From a virus (taxonomy: Duplodnaviria; Caudoviricetes), in the IMG/VR virus record IMGVR_UViG_3300017700_000830, positions 1-39,564 of that record: 39,564 nucleotides of DNA; one strand, written 5' to 3'. Positions 5,775 to 14,706 of the stretch are shown here, one piece after another (the first letter of the stretch is position 1; each line of letters begins with the position of its first letter). A program made the translations under genes and the position numbers. A model generated the notes under the pieces. The model did not search any database. It worked only from the letters and a program-made list of their open reading frames with translations, and was not told the DNA's origin.

Positions 5775-6296
5775 ATGATAATCGTTGAAGGCTGCGATAA
5801 CGCAGGTAAAACCACCCTTGTCTCGAAACTCTCTGCCGACCACAGGCTACTCGTACTGAATAACAGGCAGCGGCCCCTGTCACTACAGGACTCAGACGAT
5901 TATCTGAAGCTGACCATTCCGCTGGCTCAGCGGTTCAAAACTATCTTCGATCGCTGGCAGCCGATCAGTGAACCCATCTACGGCCCGATCTGCCGAAACA
6001 CCTATCTCTTCGAATCTGTTGATATTGCTTTCCAGCACAAAGCTCTACTGATGGCGAAACTTCAACCGATGGTTATTTACTGCCGACCCTCCAATGAAAA
6101 GATCCTGAACTTCGGTGATCGGGAACAGATGGACGGGGTTATCCTAAACGCAACCAAAATCATCGACGGCTACGACCGCATGATGGATTGGATTGCCGGC
6201 TACTGGTTCCCTGTTGTACGTTATGACTACGAGCACGATAACTACGACAGTCTCTCCGAGAAAGTGCTCGCCTATCACCAAGGAAAAAGCAAATGA
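5775..6296 (+). CDS. Deoxynucleoside monophosphate kinase (thymidylate kinase-like)
   Basis: IIVEGCDNAGKTTL P-loop; IFDRW...SEPIY motif. Confidence 0.85.
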   Translation: MIIVEGCDNAGKTTLVSKLSADHRLLVLNNRQRPLSLQDSDDYLKLTIPLAQRFKTIFDRWQPISEPIYGPICRNTYLFESVDIAFQHKALLMAKLQPMVIYCRPSNEKILNFGDREQMDGVILNATKIIDGYDRMMDWIAGYWFPVVRYDYEHDNYDSLSEKVLAYHQGKSK

Positions 6297-6979
6297 ATCA
6301 TCACATCACCATTCAGCTTGAATTACCAGACCAACTGTCCGAAGCCAGAACCAAGCTTTACTTGGACGACATCCGACATTCGTTGGCTAACATTTTTCAA
6401 AAACGGCTAGACCTGCCGGTCGCCAAAATCCTTCCAGGTCCCTATCACGTGGAACTGGAGGACGTGCGCAACTTCCATGAGAAATTCCAGGTTCCCATGT
6501 CCGATCAGCCGGCCCTCCTGGATGAAGCTGCTCATAACTTTCGTCGAAACTTTTTACGAGAAGAACTGAGGGAACTCGATCAGGCTTATGCCACCAAGAA
6601 CATCCATGAAGCCGGCGATGCACTGGTCGACCTGGTTTACGTCGCCATCGGTACAGCTCTGATGATGGGTCTGCCATGGCCTGAGATGTGGGCTACAGTC
6701 CAACGGGTCAACATGACCAAACGCCTGGCCAAACCAGACGGCTCGGACTCCAAGCGCAATAACCCACTGGATGTCATCAAGCCCGAAGGCTTCAAAGCAG
6801 CTGACCACTGGGAAGCACTGGGCGAACGTGCTCGTCGATCCCCTTTCTTTGACGCCACAGCCGCAGTGCTGTCCCTGGCGGAACTCCGGAAACAGTCTGT
6901 TTCTGACGTCGGGGTAAAAACTGAACCTGAAGCCTCGAACGAGTCCGCCGGTACCCCTGCACCGAGCCCGTCGGTTTAA
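6293..6979 (+). CDS. MazG/PRA-PH-like nucleoside triphosphate pyrophosphohydrolase
   Basis: FH.KF...LREELREL...DALVDLVYV...VQRVNMTK...KPEGF. Confidence 0.85.
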   Translation: MNHHITIQLELPDQLSEARTKLYLDDIRHSLANIFQKRLDLPVAKILPGPYHVELEDVRNFHEKFQVPMSDQPALLDEAAHNFRRNFLREELRELDQAYATKNIHEAGDALVDLVYVAIGTALMMGLPWPEMWATVQRVNMTKRLAKPDGSDSKRNNPLDVIKPEGFKAADHWEALGERARRSPFFDATAAVLSLAELRKQSVSDVGVKTEPEASNESAGTPAPSPSV

Positions 6980-7034
6980 AGCAATACGCAGGGCGCATAT
7001 CACTTCAGATAGGCCCTGCACAACAGGAGCTGCA

Positions 7035-7802
7035 ATGTCTATTACCAATCCAGAATTCAAACTGCCGGTTCTCGATCACGGATTCGTCGTGCTTCGGAAC
7101 CTGGCAGGCCCCACCCGTCGGATTTATGAGGAAACAGAATCCTATAAATCCATTACCGAAAAAGATTTCGATGCTTCGGATGTTGATCCGGCGAACGCGG
7201 CCCGGATGTCCTTCGGGGCTCAGGATCGCGACCGGGACTATGAAACCGAGATGAAGCTCAACCGGTATCTGATGAAAAACCGTCACATGACGCCGTTCGA
7301 AATGATCGTCGTCTGGCTCGAGATGAAACTACCCATCTTCGTGGCCCGTCAGTTCGTCAGGCACGGCACCGCCCGCCTGAATGAAATCTCCGGTCGCTAC
7401 GTAACCTTACCGGCCGAATGGTACATCCCCGAAGTGGTGGGGGCCAAGTCCGAGGACAAGAAACAGGGTCAGACACAGAACCTGGCCCCACTGATCCAAA
7501 CGGCCTTTAAATCGGACCTGGATGAGCAGTGCACGGAAAGCTATCGACTCTATCTGTCTTACATCAAGGATGGCGTAGCTCCAGAACATGCCCGCCTGTT
7601 TCTGCATCTGAACCACTACACCCACTGGCTGTGGAAACAGGACCTCCGCAATATGTTCGGCTTCCTGCTGCTCAGGGACCATGGCCACGCACAGGTCGAA
7701 GCTCAGGCCTACGCCAAGGCTATCACTGAGCTGCTCAGCCCTCACATCCCCGGCCTGATGGAGCTTTACCGAGACATCATGCGCGGTGAGGGGCTGTCAT
7801 GA
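7035..7802 (+). CDS. thyX: Flavin-dependent thymidylate synthase
   Basis: AARMSF, HMTPFE, PIFVARQ.VRH...NEISGRY, APEHAR..L, HAQ.E motifs. Confidence 0.93.
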   Translation: MSITNPEFKLPVLDHGFVVLRNLAGPTRRIYEETESYKSITEKDFDASDVDPANAARMSFGAQDRDRDYETEMKLNRYLMKNRHMTPFEMIVVWLEMKLPIFVARQFVRHGTARLNEISGRYVTLPAEWYIPEVVGAKSEDKKQGQTQNLAPLIQTAFKSDLDEQCTESYRLYLSYIKDGVAPEHARLFLHLNHYTHWLWKQDLRNMFGFLLLRDHGHAQVEAQAYAKAITELLSPHIPGLMELYRDIMRGEGLS

Positions 7803-8494
7803 TCCCCCGGGATCGCATTGTTCAACTACTGGTAGAAACCTCCGGTTCATCCCGGGAGGAATTCGCACAGCACTTGGACAACCCTGAACACTGGGCCAAG
7901 CTGGAGAAATTCGTTGAGGCAATTCTGATCGAACCGCAGCTGGGCATCCAGCTCGGTCACGATCAATTCTCGGATAACCCCCAAGGCCCAATAGACATGG
8001 TTCTGTTCTGCCCTGAGTGCGGGGCTCAGCACATTGACAGGGCAGAATTCGAACCCACCGGCCGAACAGTGGATAACTGCACCGAAGTTCGTTACACCTG
8101 GGACAATCCACCGCACAAATCCCACCTGTGTCATAACTGCGCGAATATTTGGCGACCGGCTGATGTCTGCACTAACGGGGTCGATACCACACAGACTCGA
8201 GGCGAGAAGGATACCCATCCGTTCAAGTCCCCGTATGAACAGGGAAAACGACATGTTCACGTTCTGCCGACCAAAAACTTCAACCCCGTGTTTAAGGTCA
8301 AGTTAACTGAGCGGCTACCCAGCGATGAGTTTTTGGAAGTCACCGATGTCACTGGCAAATATATCTGCGATGTTCCTTTTTATATGGACCTCAAACCTCT
8401 GTTTGGGGACCGTCAGTCGCTGTACTTCGTAGCCAAATTTATCAACGGCTTCCTGACCCTTCAGGACAACATCTCACCATCGGACTTCAAATGA
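7799..8494 (+). CDS. Hypothetical protein with Zn-finger-like motif
   Basis: FCPECGAQHID...NPPHKSHLCHNC; ATGA-coupled within operon. Confidence 0.7.
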   Translation: MIPRDRIVQLLVETSGSSREEFAQHLDNPEHWAKLEKFVEAILIEPQLGIQLGHDQFSDNPQGPIDMVLFCPECGAQHIDRAEFEPTGRTVDNCTEVRYTWDNPPHKSHLCHNCANIWRPADVCTNGVDTTQTRGEKDTHPFKSPYEQGKRHVHVLPTKNFNPVFKVKLTERLPSDEFLEVTDVTGKYICDVPFYMDLKPLFGDRQSLYFVAKFINGFLTLQDNISPSDFK

Positions 8495-9321
8495 AAGTTA
8501 CCCCTGCAGAAAGCAAAAGGCAACTGGCACTGCTCCAGGAAAAGGAAATGGGTCTTCTTGACCACTGGCGCAAACTGATCTGGAAGGCAGCTACCAGTCC
8601 AACCTTAGCAATCTCGGGGGTTCGCAAGATTTGCTCTGACATTTCATTCGAGCTACCTTGGGAGGCACTGGTCAGGTCTGAATTGACCTATCAGGACATC
8701 TGCTATACGGCCGCCAAGGGACGCCAGCTGTCCAGGAATTATTGGGATCAGGACGAGGTTGATGCGGCGGTCACGAAGCTCCTGTCCAGGAAGGGTAAAG
8801 ACCACAGCTCGGTGTCTATTCAGATGAGAGGGCAAGTCAAAGACGCCCGCAGTCAGGGATTCTGCATGCAGAACACAGTGATTACCCTGACCCCTAACGT
8901 CTGCACCCTCGACATCTACTACAGGTCAACAGAACTGGTTCAAAAGTTTCTGGCTGACCTGATTTTCTTTGGGGACAAGTTCCCCGAGATTTTTGAGAAG
9001 CTGGGGCGAACCCCAACCGTGATCAGGTTCAAGTTTGCCAACGTCTACCTGTCAGCAGTATTCATGCCGATCTTCCTCCGGTATGAAACCGACCCGGTGG
9101 CATTCTTCGAGAAACTCAGTTTCCATGACCCAAAATTTTTCCGCACATGCGGACTTGCAACCAGGAGGTTCTTCAACGAGACACATAACTACACCTATCG
9201 AACACGGGTTAAGATGTTCGAATATTGGAAGGAACACGTAGTCCCCAACAGGAAGCTGCAAAAGATGTTGGCCGGCCTGAAGGGTGAAACGGTTATTGAC
9301 GAAGAAGGAGATGACGAATGA
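8491..9321 (+). CDS. Divergent thymidylate synthase-fold protein (paralog A)
   Basis: GFC...YYRSTELVQKFLADL parallels TS PC...RSxD...N; clear similarity to 11125-11868. Confidence 0.65.
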   Translation: MKVTPAESKRQLALLQEKEMGLLDHWRKLIWKAATSPTLAISGVRKICSDISFELPWEALVRSELTYQDICYTAAKGRQLSRNYWDQDEVDAAVTKLLSRKGKDHSSVSIQMRGQVKDARSQGFCMQNTVITLTPNVCTLDIYYRSTELVQKFLADLIFFGDKFPEIFEKLGRTPTVIRFKFANVYLSAVFMPIFLRYETDPVAFFEKLSFHDPKFFRTCGLATRRFFNETHNYTYRTRVKMFEYWKEHVVPNRKLQKMLAGLKGETVIDEEGDDE

Positions 9322-10154
9322 AAGCAGGATTTTTCGATGACCAAGTTATTCCGGTTATCAAACAAGGTTTCCTCCATGCCCCTGTGGTTCACCCGCCACG
9401 CTGGCAAACAGTCGACGTGTCCAAGATGGATCACATGGCTACACACGAGCTGCTTCATCACAGTTTGCGACTGGACCTGGAAGGCGTCGAGAACCTGAAC
9501 TTCTGGCGGGATGAAATCAAGCCGAACCTGCCATGGGCAGATGATCACTTTGTGATGGAACGAGTCGGAGGCCAGCCGCTGAACCCAGGTGAACAGTGGA
9601 AGCACTGGCCCGGTGCCAAGAACGCGGCCACGCACAAGGCTCAGGGGGCCTTCTCCCACAGCTACGCCGAGCGGTTCTGGCCGAAATATGCCGGCCTGAC
9701 CGAAGGTGGAAAGCTGGACGGGGAGTCCGAGTTCAAAGTCCTGAAGAATGGTCATCACGGAATCCGGTTCGCTTATGGTGATCTGGAAACCCTGGTGACG
9801 GTTCTGGCCCACGAACCCCTGACCCGCCAGGCCTACCTGCCGGTCTGGTTCCCCGAGGATCTGTCAGCGATCCGGGAAGGGCAACGCGTACCCTGTACCC
9901 TGGGGTATCACTTCATCATGAGAAACAACCGGATCGACATTGTCTATCACATTCGCAGCTGTGATTTCATTCGTCACTTCAGGGACGACGTCTACATGGC
10001 GATCAGACTGCTCCTGTGGGTTCTTCAGCAGTGCCGACTGGCGGCCCCGAACCAAGGTTGGTCCGACGTCAGAATGGGAAGCATGCTAATGAACATTGGT
10101 AGCTTCCATATCTTCAGGGCTGACCATAAAATCCTTTTCAAGGTACGGTCATGA
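9318..10154 (+). CDS. Thymidylate synthase superfamily enzyme, dCMP hydroxymethylase-like
   Basis: TRQAY, VPCT catalytic Cys, RSCDFIRHFRDD (Asp at N177 equivalent), GSFHIF. Confidence 0.85.
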   Translation: MKAGFFDDQVIPVIKQGFLHAPVVHPPRWQTVDVSKMDHMATHELLHHSLRLDLEGVENLNFWRDEIKPNLPWADDHFVMERVGGQPLNPGEQWKHWPGAKNAATHKAQGAFSHSYAERFWPKYAGLTEGGKLDGESEFKVLKNGHHGIRFAYGDLETLVTVLAHEPLTRQAYLPVWFPEDLSAIREGQRVPCTLGYHFIMRNNRIDIVYHIRSCDFIRHFRDDVYMAIRLLLWVLQQCRLAAPNQGWSDVRMGSMLMNIGSFHIFRADHKILFKVRS

Positions 10155-11128
10155 AGCCACAGCTGGCAGAGGACGCGATCCTCGATCAAGTCATCTTCCC
10201 CTGTGGGGTTCAGCCCAAGTTCGACGGTGTTCGTGCCGGCATCTACAACCCCGGGGCCGGCCTGACAGGTCGGAGCCTGGATCCTTTCGCCGGGTATGGA
10301 ATCACCGACTACTTCAGTCGCCCCGAATGGACAGGGTTCGACGGGGAGATGGTTCTGGGGGACAACCCCTACAGCACGGACCGTCTCTGTAGCCTGACTT
10401 CAGGGGCCATGGGGAAGTTCAAGGGGATTACCCGGATGGCTGACCTGCATTGGCACCTGTTCGACCTGGTGAACGCTGAGACCGTCAAGCTGCCTTACAT
10501 TGCCAGGTACATGATGCTTCGGGATCGGCTGGCTAAATGGACCCCAGGTGGAAAACGAATTCATATCGTCCCAATGGACTTCGCACAGAACAGGAAGGAG
10601 TTGAACCGGCTGATTCAAAACCACATCGATCTGGGAGCCGAAGGAACCATCATCCGGAACCTGAATGCCTTGCCCAAGGAAGGTCGACCAACCAAGGCGG
10701 GCCAGCAACTATGGCGAGTTAAAACCTGGGTCACCGGAGAGATCCGAGTCGACGAAATCATCGAAGGAGAATCAAATCGCAACGCACCTAAAACCAACAC
10801 GCTGGGCAAAATGGAAAGGAGCAGTGCCAAAGCCGGTAAGGTTCCCAACGGTCAAATTGGTTCCCTCAAGGGACCACTCCTTGAGGACCTCATTCACCCC
10901 CACACCGGAGTATGTCTACTCAAACAGGGGACGATGGTTACAGTAGGCCGCGGGGAGATGGATGCGGACGAAGCTAAGGCCTGGTTCGAGGATCAAACCC
11001 AAATCCTGGGCTGGGCCGCCACCTTCAAATCCATGCCACACGGAATGAAGGATGTTCTCAGGATGCCAACCTTCAAATCCAAACGACTGCCGGCTGACCA
11101 GTCTCGAGTCAAGAGGAGACTGCGATGA
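10151..11128 (+). CDS. ATP-dependent DNA ligase
   Basis: QPKFDGVR (motif I), FDGE, LFD, EGTIIR, RVK, R.P.F. Confidence 0.92.
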   Translation: MKPQLAEDAILDQVIFPCGVQPKFDGVRAGIYNPGAGLTGRSLDPFAGYGITDYFSRPEWTGFDGEMVLGDNPYSTDRLCSLTSGAMGKFKGITRMADLHWHLFDLVNAETVKLPYIARYMMLRDRLAKWTPGGKRIHIVPMDFAQNRKELNRLIQNHIDLGAEGTIIRNLNALPKEGRPTKAGQQLWRVKTWVTGEIRVDEIIEGESNRNAPKTNTLGKMERSSAKAGKVPNGQIGSLKGPLLEDLIHPHTGVCLLKQGTMVTVGRGEMDADEAKAWFEDQTQILGWAATFKSMPHGMKDVLRMPTFKSKRLPADQSRVKRRLR

Positions 11129-11868
11129 TCCGTGAATATATTCTGAACCAGATGAAGCGACATGGCTTCAGGAACAGCCGAATCAAGGGACAGCATCCGG
11201 GTCATACGATCTCAGTCGGTGGCCTCTGTATTGAGTTCAAGCACACCAAGTACATGAACTATCAGCTAGGCGACATCGGGTACACCGATTCCAAGGCCCG
11301 CCAGTTGATTCGGGGTTATCTGGACAAACAGACTTACCTCGACTGGATTGCTGCCCTGAAGAAACAGCAAACCTTTGGGAGCATCGACGCTGACATCATG
11401 ATGTTTCCTGGGGGATCACACGGCCATGAGCGCGGGCCCTGTATCACCGCTATGGGGTTCCGAGACACCCGGGTTGAGATACCTACCCTGACGGTGTTTA
11501 GCCGATCCAGCGAGTTCCCGCACAAGTTCCTGGCTGACCTGTGGCTCCTGACCGGGATCGCGGAATCCATGAACCAGCTTCAGGTCATCACTCCCCGGCC
11601 GATCCAGGTTCGATGGTTCATCTCACTGACCTGGATGGACTGCCGAACCATCAACTATCTTCGGGTCATGAAAAACCCGATCTTTCCGCCCTACTCGAAA
11701 AGCGAAGAATTTGAGTTCAGGACGAACCAGCAGTGGGATACCTACATCGACTCTGACAAGGAGGTTTCGTTTTCAACCCTGCGAAACCTGAAGAAGCTGC
11801 ATCAGGGTGGAAAGAAAGTTTCAACTTTAACGCCTGGCTCTTTGGCCGGGCTGATGGGAGTTCTATGA
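11125..11868 (+). CDS. Divergent thymidylate synthase-fold protein (paralog B)
   Basis: GPCI...FSRSSEFPHKFLADL; shares DI.YT..K.RQL.R.Y.D with paralog A. Confidence 0.65.
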   Translation: MIREYILNQMKRHGFRNSRIKGQHPGHTISVGGLCIEFKHTKYMNYQLGDIGYTDSKARQLIRGYLDKQTYLDWIAALKKQQTFGSIDADIMMFPGGSHGHERGPCITAMGFRDTRVEIPTLTVFSRSSEFPHKFLADLWLLTGIAESMNQLQVITPRPIQVRWFISLTWMDCRTINYLRVMKNPIFPPYSKSEEFEFRTNQQWDTYIDSDKEVSFSTLRNLKKLHQGGKKVSTLTPGSLAGLMGVL

Positions 11869-12317
11869 GAATCAGCCGAGATGACATGCTGATGGAGATC
11901 GCGCTTATTATGGCCCGACGTTCAACCTGTAACCGGCTCCAAGTGGGGGCTGTAGTGGCTCAGGCCGGAAGGATCGTCTCCACTGGCTATGCTGGAGCCC
12001 CCGCAGGCCTGCCGCATTGCTCGTCTGAGACGTGCAACGTGTCTACCCCCTGTACCCGGACCGTGCACGCCGAAGCAGGGGCCATATCGTACGCAGCACG
12101 GGCCGGCATTTCACTTGAGGGAAGCAGCTTATACTGCACGCACTGCCCCTGCCTCGACTGCGCCAAATTAATCATCAATACAGGAATCAAACGTGTCCTC
12201 TACGACCAAGCGTACCGTAAGACGGAAGGCCTCGAGCTCCTCCAATCAGCTGGAATTGAAGTTGGACAGTGGAGTCCAACCGATCTCAGCTTTACCCGGC
12301 CTCGCCCGGGACAGTAA
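11865..12317 (+). CDS. dCMP deaminase family protein
   Basis: RSTC.R.QVGAV, HAE and PCLDC zinc motifs. Confidence 0.92.
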   Translation: MRISRDDMLMEIALIMARRSTCNRLQVGAVVAQAGRIVSTGYAGAPAGLPHCSSETCNVSTPCTRTVHAEAGAISYAARAGISLEGSSLYCTHCPCLDCAKLIINTGIKRVLYDQAYRKTEGLELLQSAGIEVGQWSPTDLSFTRPRPGQ

Positions 12318-14706
12318 CTGCGAACGTTGCTCTAACTGGGAATCAGCCGAGCACGTCTGCATGTGGGGCACAGGCCCGAAGAACGCAAAGATCATGATCA
12401 TCGGGGAAGCCCCCGGTGACCTGGAGGATCGAACCGGACGCCACTTCCAAGGACGAGGTGGCAAGCTGCTTGATCAGCTACTGGAAGCTGCCGGGGTCGA
12501 ACGCAAAGACTGCTACCTGACCAATGTAGTTAAATGCCATCCTCCTGAGGGTCGATCCCCCAGTGCCAAGGAGGTCAGTATCTGCAAAGATTACCTAACC
12601 AGGGAAATCGCTGAAGTCAAACCAGAGTTCATCCTGACCCTGGGTGCCACAGTTCTCAAGGCCCTGACGAAAAAAGCCAAGATCACCGAACTGCATGGCC
12701 AGCCATTCGCGTATATGGGCAGCACTGTGGTTCCGTCCTTCCACCCGAACATGGCCCTCAGGGATCCGACCAGACTCCCGGGTCTTACCAAGGACATCAA
12801 AAAATTCGGCCATCTGTTGGCCGGCAACGTTCCTACCAGTGCAGACATTCACTGGGAAGTCATAACAACCCTGAAGCAGTGGAATACCTTCATCGAGGAG
12901 TATGCTGCTTCTGACGAGCTGGGGGTCGACCTGGAAACCACAGGGCTGGATCCTTACGCCCCCGGAGCCATGGTTAACACCATTCAGGTCTCATTGGATA
13001 ATGACAAAAACTATGCCCTGCCTCTGAACGTCAAAGACAGCCCTTGGAAACATGACCAGAAACAACAGCAGTTCTTCATCGACACGATGGTCGACCTGGC
13101 TGAGGGTAAGGAGGTGGTTGGTCAGAACTTCAAATTCGACAACCGATTTCTCTTCAAGTGTTACGGCCGAAAATTCAAGCTTAAATTCGATGTGATGCTG
13201 GCCCACCATCTGCTGGATGAGAACAGTCCACATGGCCTGAAGGAACTTGCCAGTGAATTCCTGAACGCACCTTCCTACGACGTGCCACTTCGAATCAAGC
13301 TGGGGGACTTCAGGAACCCGACCGAGCGGGAACAATTCTACAAGTACGGCTGCTTCGATCCTCACTACACCAGGAATCTCAAACACATCTTCAAGCCGCA
13401 GCTGCTGAAGCACCCACACCTACGCCGCCTGTACTACAAATTGGTAATGCCCGCGGCCCGAATGTTCGAGAAGATCGAAACCAGTGGCCACTTTATCAAC
13501 CTGACTCGTCAGGCGGAGGTCGAGAAAGAACTGACCCTGAAGAAAAACAAAATCCTGACCGAAATGAATAAGCTGGTGGGCAGAACCTTCAGTGGGAACA
13601 CCGTCAACTGGAATTCACCCAAACAGATCGGAAAACTGTTTTATCAACACCTCAAACTTCCAATCCTAGAAAAGACTAGCACAGGAGCCGCAAGCACCGG
13701 GGAGTCGGTACTGCTCAGACTGCAACACGAACACCCTTTACCGAAGCTCCTGATGGATTTTAGGGGCATCGACAAGAACCTGAGTACATACGTTGTCGGT
13801 TGGAAGGAACTGATGCACGGCAATGAACTGTTCATGTCCACAAAGCTGCATGGAACGGTTACCGGCCGTTTCGCCAGTCGTCTGCATCAGGTTCCCCGAG
13901 ACCCGATGATTCGAAGCCTGATCGATGCTCCGCCGGGATGGTCTTTCGTCTGCGCCGATTATTCTCAGATTGAACTGCGAATCGCCGCCATGCTTTCGAA
14001 CGACGTTCGCATGAAACAGATTTTCCAAACAGGTGGGGATATTCACTCCGCAACTGCCTCGTTTATTCTAGGCAAGCCTGTTCATCTGTTGACCAAGGAA
14101 GAACGGAAGATGGCCAAGGCGGTGAACTTTGGCTTGCTGTACGGAATGGGTTGGCCGAAACTGATTATTTACGCACGTGATAATTACGGAGTCGACATGT
14201 CTGCCAAGGAAGCCCAGGCATTCCGGGTCAGGTACTTCGAGACTTATTCGGCCCTCCCCGTGTGGCACGAACGGCAAAGGCGCTGCGTCAGGGCATTCGG
14301 AGAGGTTTCCTCCCTGTCAGGACGCGTACGCCACCTGCCAGGCATCAACAGCAGCGAGAAGGGCGTCAGGGCTGAAGCGGAACGTCAGGGCATCAATAGC
14401 CCGGTTCAGGGCTTCGGATCTGGGGACATGAAAGCCATGGCAATGGTTGAAATCCATGATGAATTCAGCTGGGACCATGTTCGAATCAAGGGGGAGGTTC
14501 ACGATTCCATTCTCATGTGGGTCAGAACCTCCAGGCTCAAGCGAACCCTGCCACAAATCAAAACTATAATGGAAGGCCCAGCACTACTGGAAGACTTCAA
14601 AATCAACATGACGGTTCCCCTGGTAGCTGACTTCGAAGTAGGCCCCTGGGGCAACGGCAAAGTAGTTCTTTTCGATGACGGCAAATTCGCCGGGTTCAAG
14701 GAGTAA
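12193..14706 (+). CDS. Family A DNA polymerase with N-terminal family-4 uracil-DNA glycosylase-like domain and 3'-5' exonuclease
   Basis: CERC, GEAPG..ED, TNVVKC.P, FHP (UDG); DLETTG, N.KFD, Y...D (exo); DYSQIELR, R...K..NFG..YG, VHD (pol motifs A/B/C). Start codon less certain. Confidence 0.93.
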   Translation: MSSTTKRTVRRKASSSSNQLELKLDSGVQPISALPGLARDSNCERCSNWESAEHVCMWGTGPKNAKIMIIGEAPGDLEDRTGRHFQGRGGKLLDQLLEAAGVERKDCYLTNVVKCHPPEGRSPSAKEVSICKDYLTREIAEVKPEFILTLGATVLKALTKKAKITELHGQPFAYMGSTVVPSFHPNMALRDPTRLPGLTKDIKKFGHLLAGNVPTSADIHWEVITTLKQWNTFIEEYAASDELGVDLETTGLDPYAPGAMVNTIQVSLDNDKNYALPLNVKDSPWKHDQKQQQFFIDTMVDLAEGKEVVGQNFKFDNRFLFKCYGRKFKLKFDVMLAHHLLDENSPHGLKELASEFLNAPSYDVPLRIKLGDFRNPTEREQFYKYGCFDPHYTRNLKHIFKPQLLKHPHLRRLYYKLVMPAARMFEKIETSGHFINLTRQAEVEKELTLKKNKILTEMNKLVGRTFSGNTVNWNSPKQIGKLFYQHLKLPILEKTSTGAASTGESVLLRLQHEHPLPKLLMDFRGIDKNLSTYVVGWKELMHGNELFMSTKLHGTVTGRFASRLHQVPRDPMIRSLIDAPPGWSFVCADYSQIELRIAAMLSNDVRMKQIFQTGGDIHSATASFILGKPVHLLTKEERKMAKAVNFGLLYGMGWPKLIIYARDNYGVDMSAKEAQAFRVRYFETYSALPVWHERQRRCVRAFGEVSSLSGRVRHLPGINSSEKGVRAEAERQGINSPVQGFGSGDMKAMAMVEIHDEFSWDHVRIKGEVHDSILMWVRTSRLKRTLPQIKTIMEGPALLEDFKINMTVPLVADFEVGPWGNGKVVLFDDGKFAGFKE

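What the first reader, a model, noticed from the sequence alone, without database searches (positions are those of the whole stretch)
5775..12317. Three thymidylate-synthase-fold genes plus ThyX, kinase, pyrophosphatase and deaminase: candidate new cytosine-modification pathway
Seen: one operon holds a dNMP kinase, a MazG-like NTP-PPase, ThyX, a dCMP deaminase and three TS-fold genes (8491, 9318, 11125). Counting from the RS motif, all three have Asp at the E. coli TS Asn177 position: RSCDFIRHFRD-D, RSTELVQKFLA-D, RSSEFPHKFLA-D. All keep a Cys at the nucleophile position (VPC, GFC, GPC). Established: Asn here selects dUMP and Asp selects dCMP, as in T4 dCMP hydroxymethylase; T4 pairs that enzyme with a dNMP kinase and a dCTPase. 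Inference: dTMP comes from deaminase plus ThyX, which frees the TS-fold proteins to make a modified dCMP that the kinase phosphorylates while the PPase removes dCTP. I do not know a characterised pathway using three TS-fold proteins. No glycosyltransferase is visible in this window.
Basis: partly seen in the sequence, partly recalled or inferred. Interest (0 to 1): 0.88.

Follow-up and report, generated by a model that had tools for sequence, protein, structure and literature searches.

The report
Phage triple thymidylate-synthase cytosine-modification cassette
This phage encodes three proteins with the thymidylate-synthase fold or signature: one likely makes a C5-modified cytosine nucleotide, and two belong to a widespread unannotated family predicted to carry out a second, untested reaction on that base, which would give phage DNA a cytosine derivative that needs no sugar transferase.

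Summary
Confirmed. 9318 (TSA) is a thymidylate-synthase homologue with Asp177. 8491 (TSB) and 11125 (TSC) model as TS folds (Z 13.0 and 12.1) and belong to one unannotated phage family of about 380 clusters. In 150 of 150 diverse members it keeps Cys146, Arg166 and Asp177, but lacks the folate-binding Asp169 and His207.

The core is a pair, not a trio. TSB accompanies TSA in 62 of 80 TSA-seeded loci; a third paralogue occurs in 9 of 80, and in cultured PMBT14 and Lebethron. ThyX is optional (3 of 80).

In 13 of the 18 loci without TSB, a divergent C5-methyltransferase-fold gene plus an asparagine-synthetase-like gene stands with an unchanged TSA. No record carried both partners. TSB is therefore likely a swappable second-step enzyme, not an obligate subunit.

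TSA looks non-methylating (no ThyA tail; no DHFR in 32 genomes). Glycosyltransferase matches occur in only 1 of 32 genomes.

Best reading: TSA makes a hydroxymethyl-type dCMP, and the basic TSB/TSC likely derivatise it, possibly in DNA. No chemistry is shown. The scan noted the TSA–TSB pair earlier on other DNA; ten literature searches found no study of it.

The parts
5775..6296 (+). P-loop nucleotide monophosphate kinase; likely phosphorylates the modified dCMP (substrate untested)
   Evidence: PHROG 761 E 1e-20; homologue in 48 of 80 TSA loci by single-sequence search
6293..6979 (+). MazG/PRA-PH-like NTP pyrophosphatase; likely removes dCTP/dUTP (untested)
   Evidence: PF01503 E 1.8e-12; a dUTPase_2 protein holds this place in some relatives
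7035..7802 (+). ThyX flavin-dependent thymidylate synthase; accessory dTMP supply
   Evidence: PF02511 E 2.8e-38; in 3 of 80 TSA loci
7799..8494 (+). Unknown 231-aa ORF; found only in close relatives, probably not part of the pathway
   Evidence: no Pfam hit, weak PHROG 14118 hit; homologues in L060, L062, L064, L066
8491..9321 (+). TSB: TS-fold protein of an unannotated phage family (C125, R145, E148, K152, D156, K76, Y84); predicted second-step cytosine-modifying enzyme; start may be 8548
9318..10154 (+). TSA: TS homologue with D177, D169, H207, plus family-specific R143 and H173 and no ThyA C-terminal tail; predicted non-methylating dCMP C5-modifying enzyme
10151..11128 (+). ATP-dependent DNA ligase (accessory)
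   Evidence: PF01068 E 8.6e-8; in 13 of 80 loci
11125..11868 (+). TSC: divergent accessory paralogue of TSB (about 20% identity) with C106, R127, E130, K134, D138; under purifying selection
   Evidence: TSB-family HMM E 3e-30 (the HMM includes TSC rows); fold; dN 0.13 vs dS 1.7 against L058; same TSB-TSA-TSC-deaminase order in L146
11865..12317 (+). dCMP/dCTP deaminase family; likely feeds dUMP to ThyX
   Evidence: PF00383 E 3.3e-23; in 70 of 80 loci by the window query
12193..14706 (+). Family A DNA polymerase with N-terminal uracil-DNA-glycosylase domain; would incorporate the modified dCTP
   Evidence: PF00476, PF03167, PF01612; in 70 of 80 loci

Best explanation
The cassette likely replaces cytosine in two steps: TSA (9318) is predicted to turn dCMP into a hydroxymethyl-type C5 derivative, and TSB (8491), with its optional paralogue TSC (11125), would then re-activate that base through a Cys-C6 adduct and change the C5 group without folate, possibly on DNA. 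The kinase would phosphorylate the TSA product, the pyrophosphatase would clear dCTP, PolA would incorporate the new nucleotide, and deaminase plus ThyX would supply dTMP. TSC would widen substrate or sequence coverage, as T4's two glucosyltransferases do (analogy, recalled). Shown: folds, residues, gene context, partner exclusion, selection on TSC. Inferred: every reaction, the order TSA then TSB, the DNA-level substrate and the final base. Odds: cytosine modified at all about 0.8; TSA non-methylating about 0.65; TSB a catalytic second step about 0.5; TSB acting on DNA about 0.3.
For: TSA: C146, R166, D169, D177, H207, R126 and Y94 are invariant or nearly so in 62 TSB loci and 13 alternative loci. 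Asp177 selects dCMP (PMC8670742 passages; PMC13326640). TSA ends a median 14 residues after H207, against 57 in ThyA. T4 gp42 and RB69 gp48 are also short, while Xp12's methylase keeps the tail. DHFR: 0 of 32 TSB genomes, 1 of 1 for Xp12. D169 is kept, so TSA lacks the D169N hydroxylase signature. TSB: K76, Y84, C125, R145 and D156 are conserved in 150 of 150 diverse sequences, E148 in 98%, K152 in 93%, which fits a working active site. The H207 and R126 positions are not conserved. TSB proteins are basic (median +3.9 per 100 aa, n=139) where TSA is acidic (-1.8, n=80). Partner swap: of 80 TSA loci, 62 have TSB, 13 have a C5-MTase-fold gene (Cys of motif IV kept, motif I altered, ENV to DDL/DNL) plus an Asn-synthetase-like gene, 5 have neither, and 0 have both. 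Whole records agree: TSB in 0 of 14 non-TSB records; Asn_synthase over cut-off in 0 of 46 and the MTase in 0 of 46 TSB records, positive controls 2 of 2. The TSA tree needs 3 partner changes, at least 2 forced by strong branches, and a 99-supported clade holding the window's TSA has both partner types. Both partner folds use a Cys-C6 attack on cytosine (established knowledge). GT1/GT2 matches occur in 1 of 32 genomes, far from the cassette. In a selection for modified cytosine, TS, PRA-PH, deaminase and PolA domains were the co-enriched set; I could not show that this TSA clade was among them.
Against: No enzyme assay or nucleoside analysis for any member turned up in my searches. The best structural match of TSB is the flavin-dependent hydroxylase AfhB (Z 13.0 vs 11.1 for ThyA), which fits a mononucleotide enzyme. 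TSA has Arg at 143, not the Asp/Glu tied to hydroxymethylation, so its product may be something else; Xp12's methylase also lacks Leu there (Asn). TSA's W80/W83 and E58 positions did not align cleanly for the window protein. TSB lies within 150 nt upstream of TSA in 42 of 60 loci, as subunits often do. Exclusion may reflect phage lineage or replacement of the whole downstream pathway, not like-for-like function; the Fisher p of 2.7e-11 ignores relatedness. Gordonia phage Yakult carries a C5-MTase-like gene (PF00145 E 1.2e-5), which would have little substrate if all C were C5-blocked. Palindrome avoidance gave no support, and Strzyga and PMBT14 stretches lack several C-containing 6-mers. Basic charge is common in phage proteins.
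Confidence: 0.5

Rival explanations
1. TSA and TSB form one heterodimeric enzyme that makes a simple modified dCMP (5hmdCMP or 5mdCMP); TSC is an alternative subunit.
For: Tight adjacency (42 of 60 within 150 nt, 58 of 60 within 1 kb). TSA is present in 44 of 45 TSB-seeded loci. TS enzymes are obligate dimers (established). TSB lacks the R126 that a partner subunit normally donates.
Against: TSA with an identical active site occurs without TSB in 14 loci with >=2.5 kb of upstream sequence, 6 of them in records >=90% complete. No TSA-TSB fusion was found among longer proteins (weak evidence).
Confidence: 0.15
2. TSB and TSC install the same C5 group as TSA, but on unmodified cytosines left in replicated DNA (mop-up); the MTase-fold partner does this job in the other lineages.
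For: The swapped partner is a DNA C5-MTase fold, which normally acts on unmodified C. TSB is basic and lacks the 3'-OH contacts. CmoX shows that such folds can transfer a carboxymethyl group which an Asn-synthetase homologue then amidates (PMC12783734 passages).
Against: TSB has lost the folate-binding Asp169 and shows no SAM fold, so no one-carbon donor is evident.
Confidence: 0.13
3. The two enzymes work in parallel on dCMP: TSB is a folate-independent, perhaps flavin-dependent, enzyme that makes the replacement base, while TSA makes 5mdCMP that the deaminase converts to thymidine nucleotide (Xp12 route).
For: AfhB is TSB's top structural match. Most loci have no ThyX or ThyA. The Xp12 route is documented (bioRxiv 2024.12.05.627091 passages).
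Against: TSA is kept beside ThyX here and beside canonical ThyA in Triscuit. No DHFR in 32 genomes. TSA lacks the methylase tail. TSB has Glu, not Asn, at 169. No deaminase within 6 kb in Clostridium phage D1.
Confidence: 0.12
4. No substantial base replacement: the genes only tune nucleotide pools or act as decoys, and the DNA is mostly canonical.
For: No published nucleoside data found. C-containing palindromes are still avoided in some members. One member has a C5-MTase-like gene.
Against: The invariant Asp177, the kinase-PPase-deaminase-PolA context and conservation across about 380 clusters match known replacement systems.
Confidence: 0.1

Closest known systems
T4 pre-replicative hmC pathway (gp42 dCMP hydroxymethylase, gp1 kinase, gp56 dCTPase, cd, alpha/beta-gt)
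   Same: TS homologue with Asp177, Thr147 and a short C-terminus; kinase, pyrophosphatase and deaminase beside it.
   Different: TSA has R143 and H173 where gp42 has D and G. No glycosyltransferase in 31 of 32 genomes. One or two extra TS-fold proteins of a separate family instead. PolA in a roughly 45-kb siphophage.
Xanthomonas phage Xp12 / PaMx74 5-methylcytosine pathway
   Same: Single-operon PPase, D177 TS homologue and deaminase (bioRxiv 2024.12.05.627091 passages).
   Different: Xp12's enzyme keeps G173, R127, Y209 and the ThyA tail and travels with DHFR. It is only about 23% identical to TSA over 132 aa. No TSB was found in the 50 kb of Xp12 fetched.
Flavin-dependent 5-hydroxy-dCMP synthases (HY126 AfhB, PDB 9iqc/9iqu; RB69 gp48; DLP3 gp80)
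   Same: TS fold that has left folate chemistry; top structural match of TSB (Z 13.0) and tied top for TSC (Z 12.1).
   Different: Defined by D169N; TSA has D, TSB and TSC have E. These enzymes keep R126/R127/H207 and come with glycosyltransferases and sugar-synthesis genes.
CmoA/CmoX/CmoY of Synechococcus phage S-B43 (PMC12783734)
   Same: C5-MTase-fold enzyme plus asparagine-synthetase homologue, like the partner set that replaces TSB in 13 loci.
   Different: Not encoded in this window. The passages searched have 0 mentions of 'thymidylate'. I did not test for CmoA in those loci.
MilA CMP hydroxymethylase (mildiomycin)
   Same: Best PDB sequence match of the TSA profile (E 3e-11) and best Foldseek match of TSC.
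   Different: Acts in antibiotic biosynthesis on a ribonucleotide; has Asp at the 143 position.

Membership tests
TS superfamily (TSA, TSB, TSC) | TS fold, or profile homology to it | tested here: met
   TSA profile: 123 PDB sequences at E<=1e-3. TSB and TSC models: Z 13.0 and 12.1.
TS superfamily (TSA, TSB, TSC) | Catalytic Cys146 and Arg166 equivalents | tested here: met
   for TSB/TSC the mapping rests on motif spacing and a weak hhalign (E 0.017)
Canonical ThyA (dUMP to dTMP) | Asn177 | tested here: not met
   Asp in all three
T4-type dCMP hydroxymethylase (TSA) | Asp177 with Asp169 | tested here: met
T4-type dCMP hydroxymethylase (TSA) | Acidic residue at ThyA position 143 | tested here: not met
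   Arg in 75 of 75 partner-assigned loci; criterion from PMC13326640
T4-type dCMP hydroxymethylase (TSA) | Forms 5hmdCMP from dCMP and CH2-THF | not testable with these tools
   needs an assay
Xp12-type dCMP methylase (TSA) | ThyA-like C-terminal tail, Gly173 and a co-encoded DHFR (my comparison with Xp12, not a published definition) | tested here: not met
5-hydroxy-dCMP synthase (AfhB/RB69 gp48) | D169N | tested here: not met
   TSA D; TSB and TSC E
5-hydroxy-dCMP synthase (AfhB/RB69 gp48) | Bound flavin | not testable with these tools
   needs purified protein
T4-like dC replacement system | Co-encoded dNMP kinase and dCTP-clearing pyrophosphatase | tested here: inconclusive
   Both families are present, but substrates are untested and the kinase has no significant PDB sequence hit
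T4-like dC replacement system | DNA glycosyltransferase | tested here: not met
   PF00534 over cut-off in 0 of 32 records and PF00535 in 1 of 32; divergent GTs could be missed; own record 84% complete
T4-like dC replacement system | dC absent from virion DNA | not testable with these tools
   needs LC-MS

The most novel reading that the evidence does not exclude
TSB, TSC and the related TSD are thymidylate-synthase-fold enzymes that have moved from mononucleotides to DNA. They use the Cys-C6 adduct to expel the C5-hydroxymethyl oxygen and trap a cellular nucleophile, probably one bearing a carboxylate held by the conserved lysines, giving an undescribed cytosine. Paralogue number tunes coverage, and the enzyme is interchangeable with a convergent C5-MTase-fold enzyme.
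Probability: 0.25. Interest if true: 0.9.

Novelty: new variant of a known kind. Interest (0 to 1): 0.72.

Why it matters
In the papers I read, TS homologues make the modified base as a mononucleotide and unrelated transferases then decorate it. Here an unannotated TS-fold family of about 380 clusters appears in the decorator's place, in phages of proteobacteria, actinobacteria and clostridia, most with no glycosyltransferase. If right, it is new chemistry for a textbook fold and a new DNA base that could govern restriction and CRISPR resistance. It is cheap to test, because cultured two-gene (Serbin, GTE2, Strzyga) and three-gene (PMBT14, Lebethron, Yakult) phages exist and an E. coli co-expression LC-MS assay for TS homologues is published.

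Tried and rejected
Single-protein scans of IMG/VR with TSB and TSC found nothing; alignment-based scans worked. The TSB profile against PDB sequences gave 0 hits, and TSB/TSA profile-profile matches were weak (E 0.043 and 0.017), so fold assignment rests on models. The search for fused longer forms of TSB found none (weak evidence). Palindrome avoidance was uninformative: the known 5mC phage Xp12 behaves like the rest. TSC as a recent duplicate of the window's TSB was rejected: about 20% identity and a separate long branch, though its exact place is unsure in a quick tree. TSC as a decaying pseudogene was rejected on dN/dS of about 0.08 from one pair. The idea that TSC and the ligase came from L043-type loci with the same gene order was not supported: ligase 28% and TSC 27% identical. 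The UDG domain is not a fixed part: its motif is in 8 of 55 polymerases. Cellular genomes: 1 TSB hit, on an 8-kb MAG contig. Literature: ten searches listed no study of this family. Term searches in papers on member phages found no mention of thymidylate synthase and no DNA-modification data. Supplement searches found no TSA/TSB motifs or member names. Iyer et al. 2013 was not held, bioRxiv supplements are closed, and subscription papers, including the AfhB paper, were not seen; any of these could mention the family.


Full report
Setting. The window is one tailed-phage record, estimated 84% complete, with lambda-like tail genes and a replication block. The block 5775-14706 reads kinase, MazG-like pyrophosphatase, ThyX, unknown ORF, 8491 (TSB), 9318 (TSA), ligase, 11125 (TSC), deaminase, UDG-PolA, mostly with 4-nt overlaps.

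Observation. TSA is a TS homologue by sequence. Aligned with E. coli ThyA, T4 gp42, RB69 gp48 and Xp12's enzyme, all fetched here, it has Y94, R126, C146, R166, D169, D177 and H207, with R at 143, T at 147, H at 173 and Q at 127. TSB and TSC are invisible to Pfam and to PDB sequence search but share a weak PHROG 34294 hit. Their models match TS-superfamily chains well above unrelated folds: Z 13.0 vs 5.5 and Z 12.1 vs 5.6.

Two kinds of protein. TSB heads a family of 380 clusters at 50% identity. In an alignment of 150 diverse members, K76, Y84, C125, R145 and D156 are invariant, E148 is at 98% and K152 at 93%. By motif spacing these map to ThyA C146, R166, D169 (now E), G173 (now K) and N177 (now D); the H207 and R126 positions are variable. 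TSC carries all seven residues. It is about 20% identical to TSB, sits on its own branch in a quick tree, had three close homologues in the protein search, and shows dN 0.13 against dS 1.7 with L058. It is an old, maintained paralogue.

The core is a pair. TSA is present in 44 of 45 TSB-seeded loci; the miss is cut at the contig end. In reverse, I took the best 80 of 419 TSA loci in IMG/VR (some are near-copies or repeat earlier contigs). TSB was found in 62, deaminase in 70, PolA in 70, ThyX in 3. A third paralogue occurs in 9: one TSC-like, in L146 with the order TSB-TSA-TSC-deaminase-PolA, and eight of another subfamily, TSD. TSD is also in cultured PMBT14, Almagne, Lebethron, STP12, STP9 and Yakult. 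Distant TSB homologues (E 3e-6 to 2e-3 against about 4,000 ORFs) precede TSA in GTE2, KimJongPhill, Triscuit, Shrew and Maco6 and keep Cys, Arg and Asp but not Glu169/Lys173. Relatives with 73% TSB identity lack TSC. Three TS folds is a recurring option, not the defining feature.

What TSA likely makes. Asp177 selects dCMP (PMC8670742 passages; PMC13326640 parts 1 and 4-7 of 10). TSA keeps D169, so it lacks the hydroxylase signature. It lacks the ThyA tail that Xp12's methylase keeps (median 14 residues after H207 vs 57), and DHFR is in 0 of 32 TSB records while found in Xp12. It is kept beside ThyX here and beside a canonical ThyA in Triscuit. I infer a non-reductive, hydroxymethyl-type product. 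The invariant R143 and H173 match none of the characterised enzymes compared, so a different adduct is possible.

Partner swap. Of the 18 TSA loci without TSB, 13 carry a C5-cytosine-MTase-fold gene and an asparagine-synthetase-like amidotransferase. Five carry neither, four of these with at most about 1 kb upstream of TSA. The MTase-like proteins keep the motif IV Cys, have an altered motif I, DDL/DNL for ENV, and Lys in motif X in 8 of 8 aligned (motif labels recalled; the Lys reading was prompted by earlier scan notes). The profiles were built from these same loci, which matters for presence but not for absence elsewhere. Whole-record searches found TSB in 0 of 14 non-TSB records, 6 of them >=90% complete (this profile is weak on actinophage-type TSB). 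They found the amidotransferase over cut-off in 0 of 46 and the MTase in 0 of 46 TSB records. TSA's active site is the same with either partner, and the TSA tree needs three partner changes, at least two forced by strong branches. So TSA does not need TSB, and both partners are cytosine enzymes that attack C6 with a cysteine. That C5-MTases can activate 5hmC and condense it with thiols without cofactor is recalled (Liutkeviciute et al.); my search did not retrieve it. CmoX/CmoY show an MTase-fold plus amide-ligase pair building a hypermodified C (PMC12783734 passages).

Level of action. TSB lacks the sugar 3'-OH His and the partner-donated Arg, has extra C-terminal helices, and is basic where TSA is acidic (+3.9 vs -1.8 per 100 residues). 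This fits a DNA substrate but does not show it. Its best structural match is the mononucleotide enzyme AfhB.

Against. No chemistry is known. Palindrome statistics gave no support. Yakult has a C5-MTase-like gene. Tight TSB-TSA linkage fits a heterodimer, and complex prediction could not be run. KimJongPhill has glycosyltransferase matches elsewhere in its genome.

Novelty. Replacement of C through a TS homologue is known (T4, Xp12, RB69). A second TS-fold family standing where a decorating enzyme would be was not found in ten searches, with subscription papers, Iyer et al. 2013 and bioRxiv supplements unseen. Earlier scan notes describe the pair, and separately the MTase/amidotransferase module, on other DNA; they are leads, not support. 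Established here: the accessory status of the third gene, the TSD subfamily in cultured phages, and the mutual exclusion of the two partner sets. Verdict: new variant of a known kind, interest 0.72.

Noticed in passing
L003:11619-12167 (PMBT14, MG596800.2): A TSD gene lies in another frame under the record's over-long 'dCMP deaminase' call, so the annotation hides a third TS-fold gene.
   Followed up: partly
L124:5495-7765: Three TS-related genes of another kind: a divergent TSB, then a TSA paralogue with Ile at the Cys position and Asn at 177, then an intact TSA.
   Followed up: no
L078, L082, L087, L100, L110, L113, L114, L123, L136-L139, L149: TSA with a Lys-motif-X C5-MTase-fold protein bearing a C-terminal Cys cluster and an Asn-synthetase-like gene. 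No full-length match among GenBank phages. Several also have N6/N4-MTase-like genes, fused to the C5-MTase in L149; L137's copy is intein-interrupted.
   Followed up: partly
L067:6306-7465 (Gordonia phage Yakult): TSD sits away from TSA, directly behind a short C5-MTase-like gene.
   Followed up: partly
L080: Complete 65.6-kb record with TSA but no TSB in the whole record and no MTase/amidotransferase pair within 7 kb.
   Followed up: no
window:30911-34600 (-): The central tail fibre J ORF begins with a Hint/intein-like domain (PT-HINT E 2e-8, residues 19-163).
   Followed up: no
window:12193-14706: PolA carries an N-terminal UDG domain (PF03167 E 1.5e-34); its motif is present in only 8 of 55 related polymerases.
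   Followed up: partly
window:3016-3465 (-): Endonuclease V-type pyrimidine-dimer glycosylase gene (PHROG 1183).
   Followed up: no
L052:5617-6501 (Salmonella phage SE13, Rosemountvirus): The annotated thymidylate synthase has Asp177 with Leu143, Gly173 and the ThyA tail, the pattern expected of a dCMP methylase.
   Followed up: no
L002 (Serbin), L005 (Strzyga): GATC is absent from the Serbin stretch and AATT from the Strzyga stretch.
   Followed up: no
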